64,000 nt of DNA from Phoronis australis (GCA_002633005.1 NMRA01000005.1:424925-488924), one strand, 5' to 3'; counted from the stretch's first letter, positions 13,140 through 61,978 are shown. Notes: generated from the letters alone by a model not told the origin. Translations and numbers: made by a program.

Positions 13140-13154
13140 GTAACTTGTGAGGAG

Positions 13155-29495: not shown

Positions 29496-30664
29496 TTAAC
29501 CCAGACTGCTTTTAACCGTTCTCCGTTTCTTGATTTTCTTTCTTTTTTCCACTCCAGTTTTGTTAATTTCAGAATCACCGCGACCACTGCCTATAACATT
29601 AACCGAGTTAATAGTTGATTTCGTCGATTGGGAACGCGGGGAATGCTTCTGAACTCGCGTTGAGGGCTTTTTTCGTTTTTTCACCTTTCGCCGCTTTCCC
29701 TCTTCCCTTTTCTGCGTGGTATCCATGTCACCATCTGAGTCTTCAGAGCTAATGTCCCCTTTGTCTGTTGAGTCACTTTCGTCAAGAGCATAATACCTGT
29801 TAGTTTGTGACGGAAGTACGGGCGAAGGTGAAGTCTCGTCGGAGGTATCAAGTTCTCTGCTTGTTTCGCTTGTTGTATTTGAGTCACTGTCCTCCTCGGC
29901 CTGGTTTTCAACGTTATCCAAGTCATCCGAATTTCTTCCAGTTTCCAGAACCTTAGCAACAGTGTTCTTAGCAACAGTGTTCTGTTGATTATCACGAAGA
30001 CTTGGCTCCTCTAGATCATCATCAGAATCACTGGACGTGGAGGTCAAGTCAGGATCAACAGGTGTGAAGGATTGCTTCTCAGCCACTTGAAATTTCTGGT
30101 GTACAGCTGTTTGACTGGTAGCTTCCGAAGGTTTGGTTTGTGGTAGAGCCGGCAGACTTAAACTCTTCCGCCTTCCTCCCGGCATAGTCATACTCAGATG
30201 ACTTTCAATTTGAGGTTCCTGAACGTGTGACGAGACTTTCAACAAATGATGTGACGACTGTAGTCCTTTAAGTTGCAATTGCGCCAATACACCAAGTTTA
30301 CCAGATCTTTCCATACTTGAAGCTGCGCAATCTAAAACTTCAGCAGGAACCAAACTAGCCACGCCTTTAGCCTTTTCTAGGCGATATTCTACTCTCCTGG
30401 CTCTCCAACGTAACCAGACCACGGCCGCGGCGCAAGCAAGGGCCAGAAGCAAGAACAAACCAATCAATGCAACGGCCAAATCTTTTTCAAGGCGATGTTG
30501 CTGGGGACATAAGGGTCCCCCACAAGCCATTGTCTGAGTACTGGACCCCACACAGAGCTTTTGGACAGGTTTTCCTTTAGGGTTGAAGCATCTTCGACTT
30601 CGAGACCTGGTTCCAAGACCACACGTGACGTCACAATCGGTCCAGTTGGAAAAGGGAGACCAGC
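29496..30664 (-). CDS. Terminal exon: second TSP1 repeat, TM helix and ~300-aa low-complexity cytoplasmic tail
   Basis: atttcag|GC TGG acceptor; WSPFSNWTDCDVTCGLGTRSRSRRC; 23-aa hydrophobic stretch LAVALIGLFLLLALACAAAVVWL (30411-30479) followed by RWRARR; Ser/Asp/Glu-rich then Lys/Arg-rich tail; TAA at 29496-29498. Confidence 0.85.
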
Positions 30665-31199
30665 CTGAAATAATGGAATGTTGACTAAGTATTGGGGCAG
30701 CGGTAACTTGAACTAAATTACATGTACCTCGCATACAGACGCAGTTTACACCGGTTTGGCAGCAAAATGATGCCAAGTTGTATGACGACGTACATATTTT
30801 GCAAAGGCCAATGATGATACCTTTAGAAGAACGTGAGACTGATGTGCACCAGATGAGCATGAAACTCAAGCACATGGTGGGACTCTGACAGATATCCGGT
30901 TGACGCCCACATGAGGATGTTCAATTTTCATATTTCAATTTCTATAAAATTGAAAAATATTATCCAAATTTGCATATGTAGGATCAAATCAATACACAAT
31001 TAATGTTTTGTGCGCAATTTCTTTACCTCGCTGTGCAGCTATTGGAACTGGTTTTATTGTAACACGAATCCGACTGAGGAAACTTCAAATAGAACAAAAA
31101 TTTAAGTCAATAAATGGGCGCATTGTTAAAAAATATAAACGATTACGTAATAAATGTCACAGAACGACTTTGTTGTGTTGGAACCAGTTCACAAGGTAT

Positions 31200-34100
31200 A
31201 ACTAGCGCACCCTACGACCAGAATCTAGCGCTGACCAGCCAGTGATTTCAGTAGGCTGCATCCGAAACACTAAGTTGGTGGAGGTTACGTGATTGATATT
31301 GGGACTGCCATTTTACAGCTGTGATGCATTTGTTGTTCGTTTGGTATATTCTTATCCGGTTCACCGTCGCGTCTTGTTCACTCTGTTTTCGCTACTATCA
31401 TCGTCTTATGGGACGCCCACATAGTTAGTCAGAAACAACGGTAACAACAACTTCGCCGTATCATCCAGCAAGCAAAAGGCTTACAAAGAGCGAATGGTTC
31501 AGAACTTCAAACGTAGTTTGTATGACAGATGGCTTTTTCAAGGTTCTTGTTAAATATATAATTGCTAAGCAGAGTACGATAGGACGTGCGCCCGCAAAGT
31601 TCTTTTTAGGGAGGCAACTTGACCAGACGTGGCAGGAAAGGTATGAGAGAAGCAGGCGGTTCAGAAGGACTCTGGCACAAAGTGGTTGAACAAATACCAC
31701 GATTCCCCCTGCGTGACTTATTTGGCGATGAGTGCATAGCACAAGAGAAACTAGCCCACATCGATTTGACACTCGAGGATTTTTTGCCCTGTGATATTTC
31801 GTATCGTCGGCAAGATCTTCGACTGACTTCCATGTCACCTGTGTGGGAGGACATTCGTTTGCATTTGTTGTTTCCAGTTTTTGGACATCAACGGCACAAT
31901 AACACCTAGCTTGAACTAGAAGAGCGTCCTCTAACAGCGATTTATCAATTTCATAGACGGCAATTCTACTGCCAGCAACTGGCAAAATTTTTCCAAAACG
32001 GTGGTCTACCGGACACAGATGGAACAGTTTCACTTGCACTAGAAAATTTAGTTGTTTTACAGTGGCTCCAGTTACCAGCCTCAGTTAAACAGCGATGTGG
32101 GAGAGAATTGCGTAACAAGAACTGACTTCCATTAAGCCTAAAATGTATCACACCCTTGACTGAGACACTCGTTGATTGGAACCCGACTGCTCAATCGCCC
32201 TCGCGACGTGCACTGGTATAGGCTCTTCCCAATATGTGATGGACTCCCGTCTTTGGCCTCGGCCGCAGACTATTGATGCTGTTGAATGCACAGTTCGTGT
32301 AGTCAACATAACTCCAGAACCTTACCAATTCAGACGACATGAGCAGCACTCTTTGTGCGCCAGTCTTCTTCTAAGCCAACACCTAAGCTCATTCCTCAAG
32401 TGTTCTTCTCAAACTCCATCTAGTGGCCTGACAACACACCACCTGACAAGGTTTTCAACCCAGAGATTGTTGGCTACAATGGTTGCCATCAACCACCTCA
32501 ATGGAAAGCCTTGTACCTTAGTACGCCGACAATAAACTCATCCTCTTACAAAAAAGTCTCAGAAGTTCGAACGTGATGGTGTCTTTGTTTGCTGGACATG
32601 TGTTACTTTTAAATACATCGACCCACCCTTCCCTTTGCAGAAGTCTACTGGCGACCACTGTCTTGCAACTGCCTTTGCTGTTGTATGAAGCTTCAGGAAG
32701 CCACAGCCGTCCTATTCAAAAGTACGTTGACTCCACTCGTATAACATAATCATACTGGACCTGCCCTTTCCCAGATACCGTTGTGGACACCATCCATGAA
32801 GTACTGTGGTGTGTAGACTACATTCCTGGGCGTGCGCGCTTAAAACAGATTCTCCAGGGCATGCTCGACTCACTGATGTGTCGTGTCTTGGATGACTCCA
32901 TTCAAGGAATCCTAACGAAACTCCATGATGACCTCTACAGCAGTGCCGATACCTCTGAGCAACTCACTGCCGATGGACGACGTATTTTGCATGCTTTCCA
33001 TCGATGCAATCTCCACTTGTCACCTTGCAAGACAATCATTTGTTCACAGCAAAGTTCGTTCTTGGGTGAATTTGGACCGAGGACTCTCGGCAAGCTCTCG
33101 CCGTATTTCGGCCCTGGAAGCACATCCACCACCTGACACCGTGAAGGTCTGCATTCCTTAACCGGGACTTACAAGTTTCTCAACCGCGCCCTTCCTCGTT
33201 GTTTACTGATGTTTGCTCCACTTGATCACGCAATTGCCGCTTGGCATTCCACAGAGAAGGTCACTCGCTCTGAGACGTCTTTACAAGATGTTTTAAAACA
33301 GTACTTTACCGTTGCATATATTTCCCGGCATTCGTTTTTGATCCTCGAGAACTTCCAACCTCCATTGTCCAGCCCGGAGCACATAATCATTACCAGACCT
33401 GCACTACACGTACGCTTGACCTCTAATCGTACCGCCAAGTCCTCATGGTTGTTCAACATAACGTTTTCGCCTTGGACTTGAAAACAGCTGTAAAGTTTTT
33501 GTCTTTCTCCATGTGTGCTATTTGGGTGAAATTCCCTGTCGTTCAGTCGTCTGAAGCTCTGCCAGCTGTGTATGGATTAAATTTGCAGCAGGTGTATTAA
33601 AGTGCAACAGATATCTGATACTACTTGCACACGAGTGCACTTCTTTGTACTCCGTTAACTCTATTGTTTCCGGCCAGAAAGACAGTCATAAGAAATTCCC
33701 TTTCCTGTATCTGTTTAAATCTCTATCGAATTTATGGTTACGGTGTAATGTTCACAGTTAATCCCTCCTCTGGATTTATGTATCTTCAAGGTGATCCTAC
33801 TCATCAGCGCCCGGGCTGTCTCTTGACATCGGCCGTGTGAAGAGCATTAACACAAACCCTGCCGCCGAAAGAGTCATTGCTGAATTCGAAGATGAGCTGC
33901 TACGATAAGCAAAGCTGAACACTCGGATCCGAAGCGAGGGTTTCTCTGCATGTGTGCTGTAGACTCGGCTAATTAGCCAAATTAATATTGAGCAAACCCC
34001 TGACAACTATTATCAGTGTACATCCTCAAAAACACCATCCACGTCAAAGTAACTAAGTCTACAGCGAAAGATCGAAGAACAGAAAAGGAAACCTTATCAT

Positions 34101-34400
34101 CCCTCATGTTCTACTAGTACTACCTCGTAGACCTGTGTGCTGAACGTGACACGACGTACGCTCGTGGCTGCTTGATTACCGTATCTACTGATGGGTATAG
34201 TGTTTAATCTAGAAGATTGTGGGTTCCTTGTTACAAGGTAAACGTTGTGACTGCTACCATGTTCTTCCTATTCCAACGACAGAGCAGACACCGTTCTGAC
34301 GCTTCAGATGACGACGATCCCTCTGAAGAGTTCCAACCTGCTTCGTCATTCAAGCGACGATCACCGACAGGACTACTGCTGTGCTGAACTCGTCACATCA
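31200..34400 (+). mobile_element. Heavily decayed Gypsy-type retrotransposon of a second lineage; boundaries approximate
   Basis: RT-like LMCRVLDD...KLHDDLYS...CNLHLSPCKTIIC (32783-33136); integrase-like NTNPAAERVIAEFEDELLR (~33848-33906); many stops and frameshifts. Confidence 0.65.
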
Positions 34401-35595
34401 ATAAAAGTACTAATTATGAGTCTATTTCTTTAGATTAAAGCCCTTTGCTAGTAACGAATCTGACACCATTTTCCAACACCAGGTGGTTTTGTTGCAATCC
34501 GTGGTGTGTTTGTCAGGATTGCTCACGAAAGTCATGCACCAACATACCTATAAAAATACTAACCAGCTCAATCGACACTGATTTGTGGGCCTATTATGGG
34601 GATTCGTGGGCACTTTGGATGTAAACATAGGTCGTTGTTACTAGTGTCACGCTGCGCACTAATGTCTATAAGGCTTATAAAAGTCCGTGTATGTTATATA
34701 TGGTACACAAAAATGAAATGCGTTGTAACAAAGAATACTCGGAGCCATAGATTAATTGTTTGAAATCTATGTTACCAGTGATTATCCAGGTTTACTAAGA
34801 TACTTCCTTGGCTATAAATCAGCATGGGAATGGTCATCTAGGTCAAGTGGCGGTCGCAGGGAAGACCGCTTGGTCGATGTCGACCGCAATTCCGTTTATG
34901 TTTTCGAATTTGCTCAGGTGCGTTTTCCAGCTGGGTTACCTCTACGCTTATGAGGAAAAATGATTCCACTGTTTGACCATGATGCGTTATTGGTGCCGAG
35001 AGAGAGCAACGTCTCCTCATGGGCAATAGGGAAACTGGCTCTTGACTTAAAATCTTGGCCTTAAGTCATTTTACATAAAACTAGACCCCCTTTTTTCGTT
35101 AAAGGCTGCACAACGTTGTACGGCAACTGGCGAGCATATTGTACCAATTGAGCATCATTTACCAATAAAAACGCGTTTCCTCCACAACTGGTAAACCCAG
35201 AGGTTAACATATGCCATGGCCTGTAACTGCGCAGTTCTTATGGCACATGTGGGAGCCAACTCAAATTCGTTAAAATAACCAAGGTTGCCAAACGCTAACA
35301 AGGTAAGAGTGCTTCGAGGCTTTTCCGGTGGGTCGCTGTAAAGGTCTATACAGCCTGGAAAATGATGCAAAGCTTGAATGATATTGCTCGGTGGCAAAAT
35401 TAACTTGATCTTGTCATTAAGGGTTAGGCCTGTTCAAGCTTAATGAATTTATTTTAGACTTCAGTGATAAATTTGACGAAGAAATTTCGCCAATAACACC
35501 ACCGCCTCCAGAATTCTTCAGCGGAGTAATGATCAATGCTTTTATTATTTCACCACCACCTAACCAGACTCCATTGAAACTATGCGTAGGCCTAC

Positions 35596-35772
35596 CTTCA
35601 CAGTATTGGTTCTGGCAGATGCGTGATTCACTTCCGTTGTCCAAGGGACACGGCAGTCCTCCGTATCGAGGTCGTGGTTTATTGCAAAGCCGATGCCGTA
35701 GCTGTGCCGCTCCAATATACAGGCATTTACAGTCGGTCCACGGTTGCCAACTATTCCACCCTCCGTTAAGCC
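35596..35772 (-). CDS. Thrombospondin type-1 (TSP1) repeat exon
   Basis: Read manually: LNGGWNSWQPWTDCKCLYIGAAQLRHRLCNKPRPRYGGLPCPLDNGSESRICQNQYCE (WxxWxxW, RxR, GG-x-x-C). 177 nt, phase 1-1, GTAGGC donor. Confidence 0.88.
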
Positions 35773-36113
35773 CTTAGAGAGAAGTTTATCTAAAGTTTCT
35801 GTGGCATATGATTAACGCAAAAGCAAGATTTGTTTTTGGAAGGATTCCATGACACATATTACGAAAGATTTGCACTAAACTTTACGATCGTACCCTAATG
35901 TCGCCCACATTTCGTGAGACATGGAAATTTCCGAGAAACTACATGTACTGTATAAAGAGATTTCACCATTCACCTAGCAATGCATACCGCCATAGCAAGT
36001 TTTTAGAAATTCCCTTGATTTTTTTACTTATTACGCGCAAATACAGCTTCCTGGAGATATTACGATACGTGCACTTCTATTTTCAGTAAACAGTTTCACT
36101 TCCGAAATCTTAC

Positions 36114-36386
36114 TTGTAGCAACCACTTTGCTTATGTAGTCGCTGTATCGCTTTCCCATAGCAGTCTGGCATATCGTCCTTACTTGTACGTTGTATTTTA
36201 TTCCGGATAACAGTCCAGTAAAGTGCGCCTGTCTGTCTTGGGATTCCTTTACAAACTCGAGCACTTTACCATCATCCAGTATACGGGCGTTATACCGCAG
36301 CACGCCACCACCTTCCGGAGCCTGCCAGGTGATGGTTATAGACGACGTGCTCGTAATGTGAGCGATCTGGGTCGACTTCCACGGAC
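36114..36386 (-). CDS. FN3 exon 14 (membrane-proximal, divergent)
   Basis: 273 nt, phase 1-1, GTAAGA donor. ITITWQAP...FTGLLSGIKYNVQVRT. Confidence 0.85.
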
Positions 36387-36542
36387 CTGTGAAAGCGTAG
36401 GAACTGAAGTCCAGTTATCGATTGCATACTATACGTATTCCGCCGACAGTTAGTGCTAACTATTGGTTGTTCAGGTTTAAATGAGCTTCAATAGCACTGC
36501 AACACTACCTGCTCAAAAGCACGGGATTATCTTTCATCTGAC

Positions 36543-36698
36543 CAGTGCTGTAGTGGGGCGTAGGCGCACGTAGGCGCAGCCAACCACCTTATACCATTTG
36601 AACGTAGCGCCTACGCACAGTAAGTTACGTTCAATGCTTAAGGCGATACGGTGTGCTTTGGGTGCCTACTTACCTCGAATTTTACCACTACAGCACTG
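36543..36698. mobile_element. hAT-type MITE with 8-bp TSD CATCTGAC
   Basis: Perfect 14-bp TIR CAGTGCTGTAGTGG; TSD at 36535-36542 and 36699-36706. Confidence 0.9.
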
Positions 36699-37235
36699 CA
36701 TCTGACGTTCATTTTTTCTACTTTGTTCAGATATTCTATAATCTAGATGTAAAACGTTTCGAGTTCCACCAATAACGATTTTTTACAAACTGAATTTTTG
36801 AAGGACACATAAAAATCGCGTGATGTTTACTAGATTTTGACGACATCCTTATCCAGAGTATGAGAAGACTATGGTAGCTGACGTTGTGTTGTAGAGACTG
36901 TTGGGGAACTTTAAGTGCAGTACAGCTGCGCAAGCAGTGCCACGAACATTTTTCCATTACAACCTCGAAGGCAACACACGATCGAAGTGCAATTTTAGTC
37001 AGGCTCTAAGCTAGACCTCCGGGCCCAATTTCTCCTTCTGGTTGAGTCACATTTTTTCTTTCTGATTGTCACACGTTCCCGAGTCCCTAGTCGCCACATT
37101 CTTGTTCGGGTTACCTTTCTGTCACCACAACTTGCGGGTGGGACCTCTGTAACTTCGAAGTGGAGCCCCAAATTTGTGAAAGCTCTCAGAGGTAGATTAT
37201 TTATATTATGGATTACCTTCCACTGATGCACTAAC

Positions 37236-37496
37236 CTGATGCGTCTTCAACAAGATCCGACGCATTTTCCTTCCAACCACTTCGCCAAGTGGACACTGTG
37301 AAGTTGTGTAATTCACAAGCTGCGAGGGCGCCGCACATGACGCCAGTCTCTTGTGGTGGAACGTTCAGTACGACACTTCGGCTGGCTGCCTGATACGTCA
37401 CTTTATACTTGGTATGGCCACCTATCACCGGCAGCCACGTAACCACGAGTGTTTCTCCGCTTGAGCGGACATGTACGTCTGACACTCTTTCAAGCA
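37236..37496 (-). CDS. FN3 exon 13
   Basis: 261 nt, phase 1-1, GTTAGT donor. LVVTW...YKVTY...CGALAACELHNFTVST. Confidence 0.82.
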
Positions 37497-37681
37497 CTGT
37501 AGGATACACTGATTGCCAAGTACTGAATGTTGAACCAGAAAGCTTAGATTATCAAGTGAGATCACTTGGTTCATTTGTGCCTCGGATTGTTCTATAAACA
37601 TAACTGACGACATCTGACGCCATTACCGTGATAAAGGGACCAACACAACACAGACAATGTGCAAATAGTTACAACAATTAA

Positions 37682-39358
37682 AGGGGCATGCCACCCAAAA
37701 AAACAACCTAATTTGTATCAGTTTAGATCGAGTAGTTCTACTCCATAACGACACGTGCGGTTGCGTTACCTGACACCTGACGGAGGTGTTGAAATTATCC
37801 AATTACGTCATCGGTTTCACAAGCGTTCTGTTCAGCAGTTCACAACAGTGTCAGCTTATCGCTTGGAGTCATCGTTTAGCACCAATAAATCGTCAAACTG
37901 CGATGTAAAACCCTTAAAAATACACCGAGTTCTTACAAAAACGTGTTCTTTTATTTCGTCTTACGGATTTATTGGTATTTGGACACACTGTAGCCTACAA
38001 AGTTCGGCTGGCCAATAAGGTCCGTAGGAGTTTGGGGTGTGTGTCGGAGATAATTTCGAAGTATTTTCCGTGAGATACAGACAGGAGAACCTAGATCTGT
38101 GTTGTTTAGACTTGTGATTTTCTGAGTTCTAAACACAAAACGCTTGTTATCCTGGCCAGTGTCTCGGAGCCCGATCAGGCCCTTCGCGGCCGGCCGGATT
38201 GACTCGTTATCCCGGCCAGTGGCTCGGAAACTGATCAGAAACCACGAACAAACCATCCAAAGTTCAGTGGAAACTAAACTTCCAATCAAGAAAAAACTAT
38301 GCTAGTGAGCCAAAGTAATGTGCACGATGATTATGTTGGTGAATTAGCCACGAAACTGCAAATTTACTTACTCGTCGGGAGCCGCGAATTCAGTTCCTTT
38401 TTGGCCACAGCACCGTCAGGGCAGAAGTTGTACATTGACAATTATTATTTGAGTAATGTAAATGTATAAAAAAGATTCCCCTAACACCTGGTCGTGGGGT
38501 GTAAATCGAGTTGTTTCACAACAGTTTCTGCCAGCAAACACTAAATTAGCATGAGCTCACACGGCCTCGGTGTCCCGTCAATTAGTTTTATTGCACCTAA
38601 AGCCGGTAACGCAGGTGATTTATTCATTGCTGGCTTCTCAAATCATTTCGTGCACTCACGAACACTCCAAAGGCATTGCAAATTGCAACTAATGAGACAG
38701 ACTTTGTTTCAGTTTTATATAAGTATTGGTTAGGGTGAGAATAATTCATTTTGAAACAGAACGCTCAGTAATAAACGCCAACTATGGCAACTCCCAATCC
38801 CGACTTAGGACGAGCTAGAGCGGCTCATCAATCCCGACTTCGGAGGTGGATCGTTAAGTCTTACAGGCTATCAATTCGAACAGGAATACAGTGATGAAGG
38901 AATACTAGAGAGGCGCCGTGAACAAGCTCAGACAACGGAACGTATGGAGTTATTTGGTAAGCCGGCATTCATGAGGCAAGGCTGTCGACGTCGTCTGCAG
39001 GCCACAGACACAGAGATGTTTCACGGCCTCATACTTGCTATTTACAGTGTACATTTCATTCTTTACTACCATGAGCCACTTCCTAAGCATTTTGGACTCT
39101 CGAGGAAGTAAAAAAACGATATACTCGCTTTCCTCGCGGCTGCTTAGTTTGGACAAGCGGGAACGATACACCGCAACATAGCGGCATTAATTTTCACTCT
39201 GCATATGAACCACTGACGTCGCTAGCGTCGTTTCTCACCTTCGTCACAGATTAACGCGACACCTCTTGGCAAGGTAAGGTTGACCGTATGCGAGGCGATG
39301 TGGAAATAGACCGATTAAGACGGCAAAAAAGACTAATTAAATCGGGTGGCATTCGCCT
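37682..39358 (-). mobile_element. Kolobok-like DNA transposon remnant with a THAP-domain fragment
   Basis: TTAA|AGGGGCATGCCACCC ... GGGTGGCATTCGCCT|TTAA (imperfect TIRs, TTAA on both sides). Minus-strand MPLCCGV...[frameshift]...FLLPRESKMLRKWL...LCVCGL at ~38950-39187 resembles THAP. Confidence 0.7.
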
Positions 39359-40197
39359 TTAAGCAGTCATAATGTCTCGTTTCATCACGAAAAACAACTT
39401 TCGATTTTATCTTTTTACGGATATGAAATTGATCCAAAAATTCTGAGCCAAATCAGACGGATGGTTTGTTGATTTGAAAAGAATTGACAACTTGTAATTG
39501 CTTGAGACTAGGCTCTAGGAAGTTGTTCGACTGGTCATTTCATGTACTGCGCATGCTTTGTAGCAATGGCCCATTGGCTAACTTTCAGATTCCAGCAATC
39601 ACTTCTCGTATGTAAGTTGAGGTCAATTTTATGCCGGTAATGTTGAAAGGTCAAAGGTAGTTTCTTGGGCGTAAAGCGGAGTTATAATCGCTTGAGGTGC
39701 CTACAGGAATGTGTCTAAGGAAGATTTCTTTACACACAAATATACCCGTTCCCAGCATATAACGGGTGGGTGCGAAGCTAAAGGAAGCGGACCAAATCTG
39801 GGTAGAGTTCAGTAACGCTAGGATCTCACAAATCCAGCCGAAATCACGTGTTCTTATTTAAAATACACGGCAATATCTCACCTTATCTCGCAAAGTCTTG
39901 CTTTTCAGCAAGGTCATAAGCGTTACTGAACTCTTCCCCGCGGGACACCAATCGTCGATGTACAGTAAACTACTATCCTCGTCACGTAAAGAACCCGGTC
40001 ATGCTTCACGCGACGTTAGGGTAAGGTTTTATTATGCATTGGCCAAAACTATTCACCACAGGAAATGAGCAAAAAAAGAAATCTGTACAGTAAACATACA
40101 CGTGGTGGGAATAGCTCAGCCCGTCTTGTTTTACATGTATCTATTAATGGTTTCTTGTTGCCGTTGGACGTACGCATCGGACTGATTCACAATATTT

Positions 40198-40420
40198 CAT
40201 GCGCGCACCCAAGGGGGCTCGGAGACAGGGCTCGAACGAGCTATCCATTTGGTGACGTGGGCAAAACGTTCCGCGTCAGATAAACAAAAACTCCAAAAAA
40301 GTAGAAAACGAGTCCACTAAAATGGTAGGAACCACCAGACTTCGGCGAATTCATGAATCTTAGTAAAGTCTACATGCTCATAAATTCGAGCTCCCCATTT
40401 TTAAGCTAGGTGCGCGCACG
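40198..40420. mobile_element. MITE of the same family as 24986-25242
   Basis: Shared 5' CATGCGCGCACCCAAGGGGGCTCGGAG...CGAACGAGC and shared 3' GAGCTC...GCGCGCA. Confidence 0.6.
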
Positions 40421-40906
40421 TAGTTGCTACCAAATTTGCCCTTTTGGGGATTTTAGGGCGACCCATCTGATTGTTGTGTAACACACGGCTTGAGTACAAG
40501 CTGGATTCTTATAACGCGCATGCCCTTCCCATCGTGTGCGCCTTCTTTTTAATTTGACCTGACCACAAAGTTGCCGACAATACTAAAATCGTAGGTTTTT
40601 CCGGTTTGCTGTTAGCTGACAATCTTTCTCAAGTACTTTAAAGATATCTGGCAAACAACATCATAAAAGAAAAAAAATTACATCAAAAATATTTTTAGTG
40701 AAAGAGCATTACGGAGGTAATTGAAAAAGCATAGGCACAAGTAATATGAATTAAATTTTGACTTGCTAAGGCGGACCCCAAATCCCGATGGGGGGGTGCA
40801 TTTGCTCACCTAAGAGGTAAATCGCACGAGTGCTAAGAATGGTGAATCAGGACACGTGGTCATTGGATGAAACAGAGTTAAATTTAGAATTAAGAAAGCA
40901 CTTAAC

Positions 40907-41173
40907 ATGTTTTGGCACGTATGGATGAAGATTCGTTGGCCCACGTGTTCTGTTGAGTCGTCACAGTTACCACGTATTCTGTCCCTGGCTGTAAGTCATT
41001 GCAGGAAACATTGTTGATGGAAGAGCCAACAGTCGTTGAAGTGGACGTCGTATTTAAACCTATTGGTGTACATTTCACTGTGTATCTCTCGCGCATGCCG
41101 CTCGCATGGCTCCAGTTGATTCTGATCGATGTCACGGCTGTTGTCACTTGCATGCCAGACACTCTGCTCAATT
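40907..41173 (-). CDS. FN3 exon 12
   Basis: 267 nt, phase 1-1, weaker GTTAAG donor. IRINW...CNDLQPGTEYVVTVTT. Confidence 0.83.
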
Positions 41174-41200
41174 CTACAATGTGTGGGTGTGACGACATTA

Positions 41201-41358
41201 CAGGGGCGGATCCAGGATTTTTAGTCGGGGGGGGGCAGGGCACAGCATCGGCCAGGATTTTGCCCGTTAGACATTCGCAGCCCCGTATAGCCAAATGGAA
41301 TCTGCGAGAAATTTAGGGGGGCCATGGCCCCCTTGGCCCCCCTCTAAATCCGCCACTG
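41201..41358. mobile_element. MITE with CAG(G/T)GGCGGAT termini and 5-bp TSD CATTA
   Basis: CATTA|CAGGGGCGGATCC...AAATCCGCCACTG|CATTA. Confidence 0.85.
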
Positions 41359-43086
41359 CATTAGTTCTTACTTTGGCACAACGTTTTGGTTCGTCATTTC
41401 TTCGACTATATTCAGGTGTGGCAGCGTTGATAAAAGAACGAGCACGTGTCCTTGGTACATTCATGCAAGCCAAAGGAGGACACTGTTTCTCATTTTGAGT
41501 AGTTTTACCTTGGGTAGAGGTATGATAAGAAACGAAAACCTCTAGGGAGTTTGAATATGATGAAAGTCAGAGCCTTCATGTGCGTAATGACGCACGAAAC
41601 AAAATTGTGGAAACCGCTTTTTGTCGTCTCAAATTCAAAAGCCTTACAGTCATTCAGTTTGGCTCCCGTACAGGGGCAGGAAAAGATTCACAGCGAGCCT
41701 ACAAAAATTCTAAAATCTCTTGACCAATTCACAGCAACCTATAGCCTATTTACATTGACTGACACGACGTTGAGTTAGGTCATTTCTCTGTCCATTTCTC
41801 ATTATGTGTTAAGCATTCTTAGAATGACTCGTGGTGGGCAATTTAGTTATACAGGTGTGTTTTCAGTGGTCCAGATCGAGCTGCAATCTCTGGGCCACTG
41901 TGTCATCCATTAACGTCGAGGGAAATTTGCTGTAATTATATTTTCCTTATTAGCTGTCAGTCAGGTGTTCATTATCTCAATAAGATATTTAGTACTGACC
42001 AATGTATGTGAGCGTTGATCAGAAACTTCAACAAAACGATGCGGGAACTTTTATCGATGCGTCGGTCGCCATTTTGTCACCGTCGAACGTAATGTCTCTT
42101 TGCAAAGTAAATAGCTACTTGAAATCAAAACAGGAAGATGGAAATCCACTGAAATTGTGTAGATGATCACATGGTCCTTCAGTGGCAGAAGACTGGATGG
42201 AAACGGATAAGCTAATTCAACATCCAGCCTTGCTGACCAATCACTTCAATGGGCATAACTTTGCCTGTGTACGAGTACTCGGGGATCACTAGCCGTTCAG
42301 TCACGTGATATTGCCAGGTTTGTCTGACATTCATCTCGAAACGTTTTCCGTGGAGCACAAAGTAAAAATCTTACATCTTTGAACACTTTTTTGTCCAGTG
42401 TCTCAAAAAGACGGTATTCCACAACACTGAAAAGCGTCAGGCTCCAATCCAGGCCTCATGAGCCCCAGAACAGATCTATTATTAGAGCTCCCGAGGCTTG
42501 ATTAAGCATGGTCATATCTGAACGTACATGTAAACAATGGTAAGCAACTCACGCCTAACCTTTCGAGAAAATAACGTTCACGATGTTTTTCCAGCAACCA
42601 AAATTAACATGGTTTAGCCTTAATTGTTATGTAAAAATCAGAGTCACAACGACCGACTTCAAATGGCATGCGAAAGACTTTGTCTTCTCGAATTATGATT
42701 ACGTTCCCTCTTTATTTGTTCTGGGATCTCTGAATATACATGTAATAAACAGGATTTACAGGCAGTGCAACCCAGTCTGGATTATCAGATGGTTTTGCGG
42801 TCTCGTTAAGTGCAGAAAATCTAGGCACGCGCAAGGCACTCGCCAGCGAAGTTACTAAGATCACGTTCTTCGCTGGTAACATATGGCGACATCTCGCGAA
42901 GAGTCGCGTGCTCTTGCGTTTTCGAGAGTTTCTGCATTGAAATGGAGCCGTGATCTGTGCTCCTTAAAGCGTCATATCTAAACTTTTACTTGACACGTTT
43001 TCTTGACACAACAAATCCAGATATTCTTACTGCATCAAAAGACTGTCTTTAATTTTGCATTACCGGACTTAGAGATGTGAACTTAC

Positions 43087-43368
43087 TTGTTCGCGTCGAC
43101 GAGTCGTTTAGACTATAAGAAGTGACGTCTTTCCAGCCGCTTTGCTTGGCGGTTACGGTCACAGCATAAGCGACCCCTGGGGTTAGTTGAGTGCACACGG
43201 CAGAATTGGTGCTATCGTTAACTGTCACCTTATCATTGACTGTATTGCCGACCCCACTGAAGCATTCCACCACGTAATGATCCTTGGTACTTGGAGAATG
43301 GCGCCACACCACGGATAAAGACGACATTGTTCGAACAGTAACTTGAAGCCACGGTACTGGTGCCAGAA
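43087..43368 (-). CDS. FN3 exon 11
   Basis: 282 nt, phase 1-1, GTAAGT donor. LSVVW...CTQLTPGVAYAVTVTA. Confidence 0.88.
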
Positions 43369-43850
43369 CTAAAACACACGGTAAAGCCTTAGGAACCCTC
43401 GTACCAGCGGAAACAATAGAAATTCACCATACATGTGAAAACTTTTACAATATAGGATAAACTTTGATAACCTACATATAGGCCAGATAGGCCTACCACA
43501 GGATTTGATGGTTTAGATGCTGTAGTCTAAATCTGCCTGCCTTCTGTAAAGCAACTTTTGATTTATACTTCTTAGGCTACATTCGCATGACAGGTTCCAC
43601 CTTAATCTTCCTGTTGTGGAAAAGCACCGGTTCTTCTCTGCTCAATAATTGAAACCAATCAATGATAAGTTGGCAGTTTAGTCTTGAAAACAAGCACCGA
43701 CTAATAACCACATGGCTTGCATGTATTGTCAGCTCCCTCAAGACCAGAAATCACTCTTCATCTGGGTGTGAACAAGGCGAGACCAGATTTTATAACAGTA
43801 TGTGGTCTAAATCAAAGATTTTTGACAGATGGCGTGTAGTACATACGTAC

Positions 43851-44132
43851 ACGTTCTTGTAGACGTGTCACGCACAACTTCGGAGAGCACGTCAGGCCAT
43901 GTATTCAGTTTCGTGGCGACTTGAACAGAATAGGACGTCCCAGGGCTTAGACCAGTACATGTTGCTAAATCTTCATGCGCCGGAACATCTGCTTGATATT
44001 TGACCTTTCGTTGGGAACTTGGTGTGCATGTGAGATGATACGCATCCTTGTTTCCGTCAAAGTGGATCCACGAAACGGCGAGAGATGTCGCTGTTCGGTG
44101 CACCACCCTAAGCCCGGTCACCGCTGATATCT
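43851..44132 (-). CDS. FN3 exon 10
   Basis: 282 nt, phase 1-1, GTACGT donor. LAVSW...CTGLSPGTSYSVQVAT. Confidence 0.85.
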
Positions 44133-45054
44133 CTTCACAAAAAACAGCGGCGAATCAGTGAACAGTTACTATATTTAAATTCACTTGTAATCAGTATCGG
44201 ACCATCCATTAAGCTAAATAAACTCAACCTAGAGCTTCTGGCGCCATCTTGTAGCCGTACAAGGCTTCCTATAGTGCTACCAAGCCTGCTGTGCAAATAT
44301 TCAAATACACCACGCTTAGTAAAGCCAAAGGTCAAGATTCGCCAAAAAGGTAATATGCGTACACTTAGCAAACTCGAGTTTGCGTATTTTGCCGACTGGT
44401 CTGGCATACGGCTAGTTGAATAGTTTTAAATGAAATGGTCCAGTAGTTATCTTAAAATAGGCGAACCAATATTTTTTACTTTATTATTTTGGACATTGTT
44501 GAGCCCCATTACACATAACTGGACAATGACGAGATAATCTGGACCCAACCCGAAATGTTCGTATGTTATACATCGAAAGGACGCTTTGATCCGCGTATAA
44601 TGTCATCCACAAAGTAGCCTGCCCTTCCATTCCTCAGAAAATCTGATTTTAAAATTACTCTTTCCGCTTCATTTTAGTTATAAATTGACTTTTAATGCTC
44701 ATTCAACACAACTTAAAACATTTTCAAACTTAGCTGAATTTATGAATTTTTAGTTTAATTTTTATTCTTAGCGGTCACAACAACCTAAAATGGCCGTCGT
44801 GGTGAATGACATCAGATTCATGCATTTTGGGTAATCACTCAAATGCCGCCATGTGTAGTGTTTCCATGGCAAGCTGACCCACTTAAACAAAAAAAACAAA
44901 CACATTGACGGTAGAAGAAAGCAAACACAAATACAAACACGAACACAAAGACAAACACGAACACAAAGACAAACAGGGCTAACAGTTGTTTATTATAGTG
45001 ATTTCCTTCGACTGACAAAACTCCTCCAATGTTCTAAATTGGTGAATGTAAAAA

Positions 45055-48000: not shown

Positions 48001-49110
48001 ATCCCCCCAGGTGCAGTTGAGTGTTGCTCAAGGCTGCTGTGCTGATACAATGCTGCTCTTCGAGTTCTACGCTGTCTATGAAAAAAATCTAATTCGCAAG
48101 TTTCGTCAGTGTAGTGCAACAATACTTGGGCCTTTTTCGGTCGGGATTTGGGCCACCCATGCCTTTATGCAGAGGTTTTCTTTGTTGGTAGGTAATGAGT
48201 GATGCATACGATAGATGGGCTTCACTACCACTGCGGCAAACTTGCGAAAAGTGGTTCCACTTGCCACAACAGTAGAACTGTATTTTTTGTTTCTAGAGTG
48301 ATCACCACCGCAGTTTATGCACTTGATTGTCTTTGGTCTTTGTTGATGTTTAGTATCATATTTACTATGTTTGCTGCTTTATAGCTTTGGCGTGTTTTGC
48401 AGAGACTCTTATCCTTAGCATATGCCAATATCCGCTTCGTGGGTGATCTCGGGTTCCCAGAGCAGCTGCTTTATGATTGGCCACCAGGATAAATATCCTG
48501 TCTCAGATCATTTGGTCATTCAAGTCACAAAATTCGCAATTGCCAGCATGGCTACCCGGGTCTGCCAGGAGTTTGTGTCTTACAGCTATTGCGTGCAACT
48601 GTTGCAATGTGAGCGTTTCAATGACATTCTTTCGTGGATTGCAGTTGCCTGAATTTAGCTTTGAGAACCTATGGGTTTTCACGTGATTTACCAGTTTCAC
48701 ATTGAAATGTTCTCTCGCGTTCTATAGTTTCTGAGCAAGCTAAGTTAAGCAAAATGCAAGCTTATGTTTTTGCACCTTTGTTGCTGTGTGTGGCATTGGT
48801 GAAAATGTAATAATCTCGCTCAAAAACACGCCAACGTTCTGTGACATTGTCGTCAATTGCAAGTGGGTTAGGTTTCTTGAGTACCTCAGCCATTACAGTA
48901 GTCCGGTGTATTAGTAATGAGGTTAAACCGAGTGAACGTGCAAACATGGTCAAATGGAATTAAACCAAAAGTTATCGGCTACAAATTGTCACATCTATCC
49001 CACTCCTGGCTTCATGTTAGTTTAGGGTTGTTGATGGCGTTACAACAGACGTGTGCAGGTACGTGCACACCAGTGTGATGAGTTATCAGACAACGTTCGT
49101 AGATACAAGA
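45055..49110 (-). mobile_element. Decayed Ty3/Gypsy LTR retrotransposon in the intron between FN3 exons 9 and 10
   Basis: Fragments in Gypsy order: gag (KKPNPLAIDDNVTERWRVF), protease (KIDTGAKCDVL), RT (FSVFDARDAF...YLRMPMGI), RNase H (CDASQCGIG...AQIEKELLAVV), integrase (PWSIFATGIF). Similar diverged LTR segments start at 45055 and 49015; PBS-like TGAAGCCAGGAGTGGGAT at 48997-49014. Confidence 0.9.
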
Positions 49111-50478: not shown

Positions 50479-50742
50479 TAGTTTTAACCTTTGCTACTTC
50501 TGAATGAACATCCAGCCAACCCGTCCTTTTGTGAGCGATGACAACGCGGTACAGTGTTCCAGGCGTGAGTTGTGTGCACGTGCCTTTAGTGACTGCCGGG
50601 CTCAACTCGGATGATGAGACAGCCAAACCTTTATTGATGCACTTTACGATTTGTTTCTCTACCCCGCCCTTTGCTGGCAACCAACTCAGTCGTATCGACG
50701 TTGTCAAAGGAGCTGTCCTCAAGCCGGTAGGAATGCTTAGTT
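50479..50742 (-). CDS. FN3 exon 9
   Basis: 264 nt, phase 1-1, GTAAGT donor. IRLSW...CTQLTPGTLYRVVI. Confidence 0.88.
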
Positions 50743-52750: not shown

Positions 52751-53032
52751 CAGTTTTTGTCTTCTCGCTTTGCAAACGTGGACCAGTTACATCAGGCCAG
52801 CCGGTTAGCTTCGTCGTAACACTCACAGTGTACAGTGACCCTGGTGTTAAGTGTTCACAGGTGGACATATTAACAGATGGTTTGACCTCTCGACGGAATG
52901 CAGCAGCACCAGGATCGGTCGATGAGCAGTGCACACTGTAATTATGATGGTTCCCAGCAGCATGGCGCCACGTTATACGTAACGAAGAGTTATCCCTGCC
53001 CTTTATACTGATGTTGCTCACCTCTGCTAAGT
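52751..53032 (-). CDS. FN3 exon 8
   Basis: 282 nt, phase 1-1, GTAAGA donor. LRITW...CEHLTPGSLYTVSVTT. Confidence 0.88.
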
Positions 53033-53340: not shown

Positions 53341-53613
53341 CTGTTCTTGAAGTGAGAGGAGAATCAGCAAAAATCGGTAGCCAACCATCCCTATTAGTGA
53401 ACACACGTATCGAGTACAGCGATCCTGGTGTCAGACCATTGCACGTACTGGTAGCAAAGTCTGAACCAACATAGACAGTGTCTCCCAACACGTTCTTGCG
53501 CCCGATACACTTCAATGTGTAACCTTGTTTGTTCCCCGGTGCATGCTTCCACGCTACAGTAATCGACGTGCTCGTTTGATTGGTCACACTGATTGACGTC
53601 ACTCGTTCTAGCT
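53341..53613 (-). CDS. FN3 exon 7 (non-canonical GC donor)
   Basis: 273 nt, phase 1-1, donor AG|GCAAGT. ITVAW...CNGLTPGSLYSIRVFT. Confidence 0.82.
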
Positions 53614-57225: not shown

Positions 57226-57507
57226 TAGAAATTGTTGATCCATCTTGCTTCCAGTCGCTTATCGCATCTTTCCACTTTGACTGTTTGGTTACTATTCTTA
57301 ACGAGTAGCTGGTTCCTGGGGTCAGTCCATCGCACACAGCTTCGTTTTGATCAGGCATCACTTGGATACTCTTTTTCATGGCACTGCGCTCAGCTGAGAC
57401 GCACTCAAGGATATATGCCTCCTTTCTTCCCCATGCGTGGCGCCACCTCGCAGTTAGCGAAGATGCAGAGGATGCCAAAATCTTCAAATGTGTTGCGTTC
57501 GTCAACG
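57226..57507 (-). CDS. FN3 exon 6
   Basis: 282 nt, phase 1-1, GTACGT donor. LTARW...CDGLTPGTSYSLRIVT. Confidence 0.86.
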
Positions 57508-57650
57508 CTGTGTCAAGATAGCAAGCCAACAATCATGCAACAATACATTATCGGGATACCATTTCTAAAGATAAATTTAAGAAACGAAGGAAGTTTATTG
57601 AAGGCTACTGACTGAAATGTACACTGGCTGGAAAGACAATTGATTCCTAC

Positions 57651-57917
57651 CTGTCTGGCCTTCCGTATTCGATTCCACATTTGTCCATCTCCCTCTTTCA
57701 GTAGTTACAATAACCGTGTAAGTGGAACCAGCCTTTAAACCTACACACTTCGATTTGTTCGAATCTGCACTTAGAAAAGTCTCAAAATATAGGCCGTCGT
57801 CATTGGAGTGACAAGAAAATCTGTAACGATCTTTGTTGCCAATAGAAGGCGACCACGTCACAGAAAGTGAGGAAGAGGTCTCTGTTTTCACCCTCAAACC
57901 TGTGACCGGAGTTAAAT
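57651..57917 (-). CDS. FN3 exon 5
   Basis: 267 nt, phase 1-1, GTAGGA donor. LSVTW...CVGLKAGSTYTVIVTT. Confidence 0.88.
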
Positions 57918-58100
57918 CTGAAAATGAAAATAATTGACGATGAATTTGTTAAATGCATGATGAAGCAAATATCTGTTCTTCATATCAAGAGAGTGTCGAT
58001 TAGATATAATTTTCGTTAGGAATAAATATTGGCCTACATCGCTGCGTTCAGAAACGGGCTATGATCGTACCAACACCAATAGTAACGTGAGTTCACTTAC

Positions 58101-58370
58101 CAGTTTTAGTAAGAAATTCTATGGTGGACCCTTGCCACCTTGTTTTTGTAGTAGTCACCCGAACAGAGTAAAGCGAGCCTGGGGTCAGTTGGTTGCACGT
58201 ACAGTTGCGATCTTGTGAACTCAGAGTGGCGCTACTTTTCGTGGTCTGCTGATCATTACTGGTACAGGTGACCATGTAACCATGGTAACTGGGACTGGCA
58301 TGGTGCCAGCTCACCGCGACAGAGCGTGTCGTTTTCGCTGTTAATTGAAGTTTAGATACTGTGTCCAACA
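58101..58370 (-). CDS. FN3 exon 4
   Basis: 270 nt, phase 1-1, GTAAGT donor. VAVSW...CNQLTPGSLYSVRVTT. Confidence 0.88.
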
Positions 58371-58949
58371 CTGAAAAGCAAGCGAACGTTTCTAGCTATG
58401 TAACACGCCAAGTGTAGCTTTGGAGCTTAGTATTTTCACGAACGCACGTGAATTTTACGGTGCCTTTATTTAGGCAGTTGTAACGGAAAAACAAATTCAG
58501 TGTCCCTGAATTTTTGCACATCGAAATACTTAAAACAAACAAAAAATGCAACGATAAAATTACACTGAAGGGAGTTCAGCACAGTTTTGATTTGGTGCTT
58601 GAGTACGGCAGACTACTGTGATTTGCCGCGACGATGAATAGTTTACCCATGTTTGCAACTTATTACTTCAACTTTCGAGAGACAAGTTCGAATTCGAATT
58701 TGAGTTTCTAACGTGATTCTAGCGGTCATTCGAAAGACTAAGGTTGCACTGCAAATTGAAACCTTGGGTTTTGTACTTACATGCATGTGCGTAGAATACA
58801 AGAATACTCAAACTAATTATGAATAACACCAATACTGATTCCATACTGAACAATATGGCAAAGATAAACTATGGAAAGCATACGATATTCCAATCTGAAG
58901 TCTGAGGTGACGTTTGAATATTGGATTTCTCTCCTCTGAGATAACTTAC

Positions 58950-59219
58950 GCGTTGAAGACATAGCTATGGTACTTATGTTTGACCATCCGATCTTGACCG
59001 TAGTGACGGTGATTTCATACGATGACCCTGGTCGTAGTTCACGACAGATAACCGAGTTGGTATAGAACATAACTTTTTCAGTCGCCGACTTCAAGTTGCC
59101 TGGATCTTTTGGTGTACAGTCCACAACGTAAAACTGCGGAAAGCCATTTGCCTTGCGCCAGGACACAACGAGTGAAGTCGCTCGCTGGCTTATCACCACT
59201 TCCGTCACAGGTTGTAACT
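58950..59219 (-). CDS. FN3 exon 3
   Basis: 270 nt, phase 1-1, GTAAGT donor. LVVSW...CRELRPGSSYEITVTT. Confidence 0.88.
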
Positions 59220-60466: not shown

Positions 60467-60745
60467 TAATTTTGGTCATATCGTTAGTAACTCCTAGACT
60501 CGTGGTTTCCGGAAAGCCCTCTACCATTGTGGAGACTGTGATGGTGTAAACAAGTCCGGGAGAAAGGTTAGTACACTTGGCGACTGAAACATAAAGAGGC
60601 ACTTCCACACGGCGCTGCTGTGCCTCTCGGCGCAGCGTTGAACACGTGACTTTGTACTTGTGTGCTCCAGCTGCTCTAGTCCAATTCACTTTTATCCACT
60701 GGTCTTCTGCAGACACAACCTGAACGCCTGTAACTGCTTCTGGAG
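60467..60745 (-). CDS. FN3 exon 2
   Basis: 279 nt, phase 1-1, GTAAGT donor. IKVNW...YKVTC...CTNLSPGLVYTITVST. Confidence 0.88.
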
Positions 60746-61144
60746 CTGCCGTAAAGCAAACAAACCCTTTCAACAGTCGATTTGTGAACGTAAGTAAAAC
60801 AAGCCTCAACTGTAGACAAAGGACGCATTATTAAAATGCACGGCTTCTGTAATTGCACGTCTCTGATCGGATGTGCGCGCGTCCCGATAAAAACGATTTG
60901 ACGATAATTACGGAAAAATTGATTCGGGAGCTCCGAAATAAGAAAAGTTGTTAATCAAATGTCAATGACGTCAACTTGAACTCCGCTGTGCGCGGTGATT
61001 GGTACGCAGCCCGGGAGCCAAATGCTGTTTTTTACTTATCCTGGATTTGCCGGATAAAGTTTTTTCTTTGCTGTTTTATGTAGCCTAGCTATAGTTAATC
61101 ATGATTTAGGGGGGGGGGGGGGGCGTTCGCAACCCTTGAGCATT

Positions 61145-61615
61145 TTTAAAATATGCAAATTAAGGTCGCCATTATGCAAAATTCTATTTTTGCTTTCACC
61201 CATATTTCCATGATCAACGAACTTAAGAGTGAAAGTTTTTGGGTAGATCCATCGTAAATTTTCAAAATTTATGCAAAGTTTCACTTGTAATAATAGCTAT
61301 GGTACCAATCATCACAGGAGAATTATCATGGTGTTTGCACCTATGTTTCTATGGTCAATTAGTTTAATGACATCAGTTTGCATGTTGTTGCAGGATAAAT
61401 TTGCATAATTAATGCAAATTAAGGCCACCATTATTCAAAATTAAATTTTGCTTAAAACACCCTTACCAAGCACTTCAGACAGGTTACATTAATGTTTTCA
61501 TCTATGCTTCCATAGTCAGCGAATTTAATGGACCTCGTTTGCTGGTGGATACATCGTGAATTTGCATAATATATGCAAATTAAGGCCATCATTATTCAAA
61601 ATTCTACTTTTGCTC
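61145..61615. repeat. Degenerate tandem repeat with an ATGCAAATTAAGG...CATTAT..AAAATT core
   Basis: Core recurs at ~61153, ~61412 and ~61574, with a weaker copy at ~61271. Confidence 0.6.
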
Positions 61616-61702
61616 ATAGCTGAAGTGCCAGGATGAATTTTGATAATTTATACAAATAAAAGACACCATAATTCCAATGATCTATAATGCAATTAAATTC
61701 AC

Positions 61703-61978
61703 CTGAATGTGTCGTGTAGTCACGCAGAGTAGAGGTCACTTCTCTCCAGCCGGACTTCTTCGTCGTAATAGCGATAGAGTATCTAACTGTTGCGGTTAAG
61801 TTCCTGCAGGTGGCGGTGTACTGTTGTCCTGGCACGTGAACAGTAGCTGTCGTAGTATTTAGGGTTGAGAAACATTTCACCAAGTAAGAATGTTTTCCAA
61901 ACGTCGTATGATTCCACGCCACTGTCAGCAAAGACGATGTCCGTTTTACAACTATGATATTCGTGACGGGAGCCAAAC
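61703..61978 (-). CDS. FN3-TSP1-TM receptor gene, FN3 exon 1 in this window (5' end not found in window)
   Basis: ttttcag|...G|GTGAAT, 276 nt, phase 1-1. Pattern LTVAW...SYLVKC...CRNLTATVRYSIAITT. Confidence 0.85.

What the first reader, a model, noticed from the sequence alone, without database searches (positions are those of the whole stretch)
29496..61978. Orphan single-pass receptor: at least 14 FN3 + 2 TSP1 + TM + non-catalytic tail
Seen: 16 minus-strand exons splice in one frame; the 15 internal exons are all phase 1-1. The order is FN3 x14, TSP1 x2, a 23-aa TM helix, then a low-complexity tail. Known: long FN3-only ectodomains typify R3 receptor tyrosine phosphatases (PTPRB/PTPRJ), which have an intracellular PTP domain and no TSP1. 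TSP1 repeats occur in the ectodomains of UNC5 and SEMA5, which lack FN3 arrays. Inference: I do not recognise this combination in any named family. It may be a lineage-specific adhesion or decoy receptor built by exon shuffling.
Basis: partly seen in the sequence, partly recalled or inferred. Interest (0 to 1): 0.8.

Follow-up and report, generated by a model that had tools for sequence, protein, structure and literature searches.

The report
Enzyme-free fibronectin-thrombospondin surface rod
An expressed animal gene splices at least two, and likely fourteen, fibronectin-type domains onto two thrombospondin repeats, a predicted membrane anchor and an enzyme-free, likely disordered inner tail, a combination not found in the databases and papers searched, so it likely works as a lineage-specific adhesion or spacer protein on the cell surface.

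Summary
Sixteen minus-strand exons give a 1,723-residue open frame: 14 FN3, 2 TSP1, a 23-residue TM helix and a 304-residue low-complexity tail. Stranded RNA from 2 of 3 raw-read runs shows 5 of the 6 junctions laid, including FN14-TSP1 and TSP1-TSP1/TM, and no splice out of the tail exon. No PTP or kinase ORF lies downstream; the neighbour is PSMD6. One link is missing: exon 12 to 13 was not listed. It has the weakest donor of 15, an in-frame stop just inside the intron and some intronic reads, so a secreted 12-FN3 form, or two units, remains open. Junctions 1-9 were not tested. A signal-peptide-like exon at 62990 may make 14 the full count. FN1-13 group together and 12 carry a cysteine pair absent from 83 comparison domains: local exon duplication. 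Best reading: a lineage-specific, non-catalytic adhesion/spacer receptor with a PTPRB/J-like ectodomain, not an R3 phosphatase. A new architecture of a common kind; 0.8 is too high.

The parts
62912..62990 (-). Candidate first coding exon: ATG, basic n-region, 12-residue hydrophobic core, small-residue cleavage region, weak phase-1 GT donor
   Evidence: the only such ORF with a usable phase-1 donor on either strand of the window under a crude filter set after seeing it; donor score 1.7; no RNA test
61703..61978 (-). Exon 1, FN3-1 (phase 1-1, Cys pair)
60467..60745 (-). Exon 2, FN3-2
58950..59219 (-). Exon 3, FN3-3
58101..58370 (-). Exon 4, FN3-4
57651..57917 (-). Exon 5, FN3-5
57226..57507 (-). 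Exon 6, FN3-6
53341..53613 (-). Exon 7, FN3-7, followed by a GC-AG intron
52751..53032 (-). Exon 8, FN3-8
50479..50742 (-). Exon 9, FN3-9
43851..44132 (-). Exon 10, FN3-10; spliced to exon 11 in RNA
   Evidence: 8+2 reads
43087..43368 (-). Exon 11, FN3-11; seven-strand FN3 sandwich model
   Evidence: 2+10 reads to exon 12; pLDDT 91
40907..41173 (-). Exon 12, FN3-12; atypical weak donor with an in-frame stop two codons into the intron; junction to exon 13 not listed in RNA
37236..37496 (-). Exon 13, FN3-13 (first Cys of the pair lost)
   Evidence: 1+4 reads to exon 14
36114..36386 (-). Exon 14, FN3-14 (divergent, no Cys pair); spliced to the TSP1 exon
   Evidence: (10+3 reads)
35596..35772 (-). 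Exon 15, TSP1 repeat 1 (6 Cys, three-Trp motif)
   Evidence: 9+3 reads to exon 16
30507..30664 (-). Exon 16, 5' part: TSP1 repeat 2
30411..30479 (-). Predicted 23-residue transmembrane helix, followed by a basic stop-transfer run
   Evidence: confident helix, pLDDT about 90-96 over the segment
29496..30410 (-). 304-residue cytoplasmic tail and stop: Ser/Lys/Asp/Thr/Glu make up 47%; acidic middle, two Lys/Arg clusters near the end; no Pfam or PDB hit
29120..29495 (-). Transcribed 3' UTR (continuous depth about 12, no joints); looks like a relict coding extension

Best explanation
This is an expressed, spliced gene for a predicted type I single-pass surface protein in which FN3 domains (two shown joined, likely all 14) sit on two TSP1 repeats, a membrane helix and a non-catalytic, likely disordered tail, and it likely works as a long adhesion or spacer rod. 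Inferred mechanism: the FN3 array, grown by tandem duplication of one phase 1-1 exon and likely stiffened by one disulfide per domain, would hold a binding surface some 50-60 nm from the membrane (rough estimate from recalled domain sizes). The membrane-proximal TSP1 pair, with Trp/Arg ladders, would bind glycosaminoglycans or partner ectodomains. The tail would act through short motifs rather than catalysis: a YxxL sorting-type motif, an RRxS kinase-site-like motif and polybasic clusters able to bind acidic lipids or adaptors (motif labels recalled, untested). A shorter secreted 12-FN3 product from read-through at the weak exon-12 donor is a likely side product.
For: Frame, domains and TM. 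RNA on the correct strand over the exons in X5 and X6, none in X7, zero depth in most of introns 11, 13 and 15; 5 of 6 laid junctions seen, including FN13-FN14-TSP1-TSP1/TM. No joint leaves the tail exon at depth 8-14, and no alternative letter is listed at the stop. None of the 55 minus-strand ORFs of 38 or more codons between 21000 and 29500 has a PTP, kinase or other catalytic Pfam hit (one spurious crescentin match, E 0.012), and the next gene is PSMD6/RPN7 on the other strand. FN1-13 form one group in a quick tree (SH-aLRT 89; 2 changes versus 13.3 shuffled), which ties FN13 to the upstream array; the Cys pair is in 12 of 14 window domains and 0 of 83 comparison domains. The exon-12 donor's U1 duplex energy (-3.7) is like that of exon 10 (-3.9), whose junction is used, and one-base-bulge donors are a described class (PMC4856993, passages).
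Against: The exon 12>13 junction was not listed in either run. With Poisson counts at the mean of the other five junctions the chance is about 0.01, and about 0.08 from the observed spread (2 of 5 and 1 of 5 counts were 2 or less). It is the weakest donor of 15 by an approximate weight matrix (0.6 versus 4.1-10.7). Junctions 1-9 and the signal exon are untested. No ortholog was found, so there is no conservation test of the tail motifs or of the architecture. The single-sequence model also gave the folded TSP1 part low confidence, so low pLDDT alone does not show that the tail is disordered. No function was tested.
Confidence: 0.66

Rival explanations
1. Two products or two units: a secreted 12-FN3 protein that ends at the stop inside the exon-12 donor, and a separate short membrane protein (FN13-FN14-TSP1-TSP1-TM) fed from elsewhere, with the full 14-FN3 receptor rare or absent.
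For: Junction 12>13 not listed; weakest donor; strand-specific depth in the first 0.6 kb of intron 12 (1.59 in X5, 0.80 in X6; about 2.7 over 40529-40780 in X5 by subtraction), where X7 has none and the sequence is unique in the window; an ATTAAA lies at 40553. FN13 and FN14 are the two domains without the full Cys pair.
Against: No other partner for the exon-13 acceptor was listed, and no signal-peptide exon with a donor was found in intron 12. FN13 groups with FN1-12. Counts are low and noisy; in X6 the implied intronic depth is only about 0.4. Exon 13 has an equally immediate read-through stop yet splices.
Confidence: 0.2
2. A phosphatase-less offshoot of a PTPRB/PTPRJ-type (R3) receptor phosphatase that acts as a decoy or regulator of R3 signalling; its TSP1 repeats would be a built-in copy of the ligand known for PTPRJ.
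For: One-exon, phase 1-1 FN3 domains and the W4G4Y B-C loop code (8 of 14) are the PTPRB pattern (PMC5336234, passages). Six of the best ten profile hits are named receptor PTPs or PTP-like. CD148/PTPRJ binds the first type-1 repeat of thrombospondin-1 (PMC4858292, abstract).
Against: The top hit is fibronectin, and best-segment identities are mostly 24-43%. The tree gives no firm link to R3 domains (support 82, open node), and the Cys pair is absent from all R3 domains sampled. The R3 juxtamembrane domain (PTP_tm) is not hit by any exon. Phase 1-1 FN3 exons are general.
Confidence: 0.2
3. A member of a wider, already deposited but unnamed invertebrate family (auto-annotated, for example, as PTP-beta-like or tenascin-like) that my searches were too weak to reach.
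For: The word-based searches had single short exons as queries, stopped at 2,000 residues and scored only 7,990 candidates. The one full-library search used TSP1+TM and was swamped by many-repeat proteins. No InterPro/CDART architecture search was possible.
Against: 0 of 25 FN3-profile hits list PF00090; 0 of 150 TSP1 hits match the window's FN3 profile; 7 of those 150 have a hydrophobic segment after a TSP1 repeat, and none of the 7 has fn3.
Confidence: 0.3
4. A receptor cleaved in the membrane whose released tail enters the nucleus through its two Lys/Arg clusters, as recalled for Notch- or teneurin-type signalling.
For: Net charge +10 over residues 1660-1679 and +8 over 1700-1719, next to an acidic block.
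Against: No folded or conserved effector domain; basic clusters are common in disordered tails; no ortholog to test them.
Confidence: 0.08
5. An ordinary receptor phosphatase or kinase whose catalytic exons are spliced on downstream.
For: Long FN3 arrays usually belong to R3 phosphatases (PMC10815196, passages).
Against: No catalytic ORF between the tail and PSMD6; no joint out of exon 16; RNA runs unspliced through the stop into the UTR.
Confidence: 0.02

Closest known systems
R3 receptor tyrosine phosphatases (PTPRB/VE-PTP, PTPRJ/CD148, PTPRQ; fly Ptp10D)
   Same: Long FN3 array (PTPRB 17, PTPRQ 18; PMC10815196 table passage), one FN3 per phase 1-1 exon, W4G4Y loop code in 8 of 14, single TM. 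PTPRJ also makes a secreted FN3-only splice form (PMC5354644, passages).
   Different: No PTP domain, no PTP_tm juxtamembrane domain; two TSP1 repeats next to the membrane; a Cys pair in 12 of 14 FN3 that is absent from sampled R3 domains.
UNC5 netrin receptors
   Same: Type I protein with exactly two TSP1 repeats directly before the TM (PMC10084454, passages).
   Different: FN3 array in place of two Ig domains; no ZU5-UPA-death domains in the tail.
THSD1 (TMTSP)
   Same: Single-span TSP1 membrane protein that works through adaptor binding (talin, integrin) rather than catalysis (PMC8689057, passage); long non-catalytic tail (recalled).
   Different: THSD1 has one TSP1 and no FN3 array (recalled); no THSD1-named Pfam family was hit.
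Class 5 semaphorins
   Same: TSP1 repeats near the membrane in a single-pass protein.
   Different: No Sema or PSI domain within the window.
Fibronectin / tenascin FN3 arrays
   Same: Best sequence and fold matches of the FN3 domains.
   Different: Those are secreted matrix proteins; the Cys pair is in 0 of 12 fibronectin domains sampled; no ectodomain RGD (the only RGD is in the tail).

Membership tests
R3 receptor tyrosine phosphatase | Ectodomain formed solely of FN3 domains | tested here: not met
   Two TSP1 repeats are spliced between FN14 and the TM
R3 receptor tyrosine phosphatase | Single cytoplasmic PTP domain | tested here: not met
   No Pfam/PDB hit in the tail or in 55 downstream ORFs; no joint out of exon 16
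R3 receptor tyrosine phosphatase | FN3 domains mostly one per phase 1-1 exon; PTPRB-type W4G4Y loop | tested here: met
   14 of 14 phase 1-1; 8 of 14 W4G4Y; criteria from PMC5336234 passages; not specific to R3
R3 receptor tyrosine phosphatase | Large juxtamembrane FN3-like domain (PTP_tm) | tested here: not met
   PF18861 not hit by any exon, while it hits the amphioxus R3 protein P0160
R3 receptor tyrosine phosphatase | FN3 domains descend from R3 FN3 domains | tested here: inconclusive
   Quick tree of 97 rows and 88 columns; joining node has support 82, open; almost no invertebrate sampling
UNC5 | Two TSP1 repeats before a single TM | tested here: met
UNC5 | Two Ig domains and ZU5-UPA-death tail | tested here: not met
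   No Ig, ZU5, UPA or death hit
Class 5 semaphorin | N-terminal Sema and PSI domains | tested here: not met
   None in the exons or in the 14 upstream ORFs at 62089-63999; sequence beyond the window edge not seen
THSD1 | THSD1-specific ectodomains and one TSP1 | tested here: not met
   Only fn3-type and TSP1 families hit; defining features recalled
THSD1 | Tail binds talin/integrin complexes | not testable with these tools
   Needs pull-down or imaging

The most novel reading that the evidence does not exclude
A receptor-ligand chimera: a PTPRB/J-type FN3 rod that lost its phosphatase and gained, at its base, the TSP1 repeats that are the known ligand of PTPRJ. Neighbouring molecules or cells would clasp each other FN3-to-TSP1, while a bulge-register splice donor carrying its own stop codon switches the gene between the membrane clasp and a secreted 12-FN3 competitor.
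Probability: 0.1. Interest if true: 0.62.

Novelty: new variant of a known kind. Interest (0 to 1): 0.36.

Why it matters
It is a clean case of a cell-surface protein assembled by exon duplication and shuffling, with an FN3-array/TSP1/TM layout that I could not find in the sequence sets or papers searched. If the FN3 array comes from an R3 phosphatase, it bears on an open question: what the large R3 ectodomains do without the enzyme (raised in PMC10815196, passage). The possible secreted/membrane switch at exon 12 is cheap to test. Without orthologs, ligand or phenotype it remains one more lineage-specific mosaic protein, so the interest is moderate.

Tried and rejected
No whole genome is held for the window, so paralogs and the region beyond 64000 could not be searched. 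Homolog searches: TSP1+TM among longer proteins, 0 of 1,233 candidates; single FN3-11, 0 of 102; 14-domain profile, 25 generic FN3 proteins among 7,990 scored; TSP1+TM against 1.84 billion representatives, 2,607 hits with the best 150 mostly many-repeat proteins. ESM Atlas: THSD7-like clusters at 0.88 (lead only) and generic fn3 clusters. Metagenome contigs: FN3-11 gave 0 relatives among 310 pattern matches; TSP1-1 gave one locus, L001, judged a chance off-frame match in a bacterial-looking contig. NCBIfam: 0 of 6 proteins hit. Rfam: 0 matches. Run index: no RNA holder listed; the RNA runs came by species label. Complex prediction of FN3-11 with TSP1-2: no verdict (score 0.00, partner fold uncertain), used neither for nor against. 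A hidden folded tail domain, like the one other notes report for another TSP1 receptor of this genome, was looked for and not found. The first lay at 90% likeness was swamped by repeats and showed no exon junction among the 15 joints displayed of 114. Paper searches for the architecture found no describing paper: 1 listing, thrombospondin superfamily; 0; 1, unrelated; 8 listings; 20 of 23 listed; except for PMC10815196 these were seen as listings and abstract starts only, and subscription literature and supplements were not searched. The tree is the quick method; the careful search did not finish. It used 83 domains from 9 of the 25 hits (domain E under 0.01).
Full report
Observation. Six-frame translation of the window shows 14 separate FN3-like minus-strand ORFs between 62030 and 36034, a TSP1 ORF at 35773, and a long ORF at 30920-29499. 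Splice-site inspection gives 16 exons; the first 15 are multiples of three with phase-1 boundaries, 14 with GT donors and one (exon 7) with GC. Joined in a script they give 1,723 codons with one terminal stop, one hydrophobic segment at residues 1397-1419 and a 304-residue tail; the ectodomain has 24 N-glycosylation sequons. Pfam hits fn3 in 14 of 14 FN3 exons (10 above the gathering score) and TSP_1 in 2 of 2. A profile of the 14 domains finds no further FN3 in the window. AlphaFold of FN3-11 with the 14-row alignment gives a confident beta-sandwich (pLDDT 91) that matches FN3 structures (TM up to 0.87).

RNA. The run search listed four DNA holders from one study and, by species label, three raw RNA runs and one contig set. 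At 90% likeness, X5 and X6 have strand-specific depth over the exon-containing bins that are free of repeats, and X7 has none, so expression differs between samples. At 97% likeness over 29120-44300, five junctions appear with skipped lengths equal to the predicted introns (4931, 341, 849, 1913, 482): 12, 13, 5, 12 and 10 reads over the two runs, all in the orientation of a minus-strand transcript. This directly joins FN13-FN14-TSP1-TSP1/TM, and separately FN10-FN11-FN12. Depth over the tail exon and 3' UTR is 8-14 in X5 and 7-12 in X6, with no joint and no listed letter difference at the stop.

The gap. The sixth junction in that stretch, exon 12 to 13, was not listed (it needs 3 reads from 2 starts in a run). 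Its donor is the weakest of 15 by an approximate weight matrix (0.6 versus 4.1-10.7), although its U1 duplex energy (-3.7) is like that of exons 6 and 10, and exon 10's junction is used. The donor reads like a consensus site with one extra T, which fits the bulge +2/+3 register described for human sites (PMC4856993, passages; applying it here is my inference). Read-through stops after one extra residue. There is minus-strand-only depth just inside intron 12 (1.59 and 0.80 over 40274-40780), while most of introns 11, 13 and 15 are at zero; by subtraction of bins, X5 has about 2.7 over 40529-40780 and X6 about 0.4. The chance of the junction missing in both runs is about 0.01 under Poisson and about 0.08 from the observed spread. 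I read this as a weak but likely used junction with a possible secreted side product, and keep two units as a rival. Against two units: no other partner for exon 13 was listed, no signal exon was found in intron 12, and FN13 groups with FN1-12. Junctions 1-9 lay outside both lays.

Ends of the gene. Downstream, none of the 55 minus-strand ORFs between 21000 and 29500 has a catalytic hit, and the neighbour is PSMD6/RPN7 on the plus strand. Upstream, an ATG at 62990 opens a signal-peptide-like stretch with a weak phase-1 donor at 62912 that would join exon 1 in frame; it is the only such candidate with a usable donor on either strand under a crude, after-the-fact filter. A dispersed repeat lies at 63319-63467, outside it. 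If real, the protein is complete at about 1,750 residues with exactly 14 FN3.

Origin of the array. Pairwise identity among the 14 domains averages 27% (range 14-41%). In a quick tree with 83 domains from 9 of the 25 profile hits, 13 of 14 form one group (SH-aLRT 89); FN14 is a long branch elsewhere. A cysteine pair, in strand C and before the E-F loop, is present in 12 of 14 window domains and 0 of 83 others; a disulfide is inferred, not measured in the model. Eight of 14 have the W4G4Y loop code that PMC5336234 (passages) gives for PTPRB, against 25 of 54 in four fish receptor-PTP proteins and 1 of 12 in fibronectin. This is compatible with an R3-type source exon but does not show it.

Tail. 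Ser, Lys, Asp, Thr and Glu make up 143 of 304 residues, with one Trp, two Phe and three Tyr. There is no Pfam or PDB hit. The model has helices only in the first 50 or so residues after the membrane and none beyond, at low confidence (single sequence, and the TSP1 part was also poorly predicted). The charge profile runs from a basic juxtamembrane stretch through an acidic middle to two strongly basic clusters. Motifs resembling YxxL, RRxS and nuclear or lipid-binding basic runs are present, but the labels are recalled and there is no ortholog to test them.

Relatives. Three word-based searches gave nothing for single exons and only generic fibronectin, receptor-PTP, collagen XX, neogenin and microbial FN3 proteins for the profile; none of the 25 lists a TSP1 family. 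None of the 150 best TSP1 hits from the full library matches the FN3 profile; 7 have a hydrophobic segment after a TSP1 repeat, combined with VWA, SRCR, EGF, CAP or other domains but not fn3. These searches are weak for a divergent multi-exon protein, so absence is provisional. Earlier notes of the scan hold nothing on this locus or architecture. Unchecked notes from the same genome call it a likely mollusc and describe another phase-shuffled Ig-TSP1-TM receptor; I did not test the lineage.

Comparison. It works most like a non-catalytic adhesion receptor: an R3-like or fibronectin-like stalk, an UNC5-like juxtamembrane TSP1 pair (PMC10084454, passages) and a THSD1-like adaptor tail (PMC8689057, passage). 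It fails membership of each on a defining feature. One link is worth testing: PTPRJ binds the first type-1 repeat of thrombospondin-1 (PMC4858292, abstract and outline; PMC10815196, passages), and PTPRJ makes a secreted FN3-only form (PMC5354644, passages), so this gene carries look-alikes of both receptor and ligand in one chain and may make a similar secreted form.

Verdict. Real, expressed and non-catalytic; the architecture was not found elsewhere in my searches; the mechanism is inferred only. New variant of a known kind, interest 0.36.

Noticed in passing
window 29495-29108 (-): The 3' UTR looks like a relict coding extension of the tail: 64 open codons in frame after the stop, and a 57-nt repeat spaced 64 nt apart that shifts into a 116-codon frame of similar composition. 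A one-base indel at 29205 in 6 of 14 X6 reads suggests it is no longer coding.
   Followed up: partly
window 8528-20375 (+): PSMD6/RPN7 (26S proteasome lid subunit) exons with RPN7 and PCI hits; what looks like its first exon appears twice, near 8528-8854 and 8896-9168, around a single N at 8913, possibly an assembly duplication.
   Followed up: partly
window 45054-49107 (-), intron 9: Degenerate LTR retrotransposon: RT and RNase H pieces in broken frames and terminal repeats about 81% alike over 98 nt.
   Followed up: partly
window 39190-38950 (-), intron 12: Frameshifted remnant that resembles a THAP zinc finger by eye (label recalled, not scanned), inside a repeat-rich stretch with heavy, strand-skewed RNA depth in all three raw runs.
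   Followed up: no
window 53340 (-), intron 7: GC-AG intron with an otherwise perfect donor context; not tested in RNA.
   Followed up: no
window 31430-33580, intron 15: Several long ORF pieces on both strands with raised GC and no Pfam hit; possibly an old mobile element.
   Followed up: partly
window 28877-29066 and 63319-63467: A dispersed repeat (90-92% alike, inverted) flanks the gene on both sides.
   Followed up: partly
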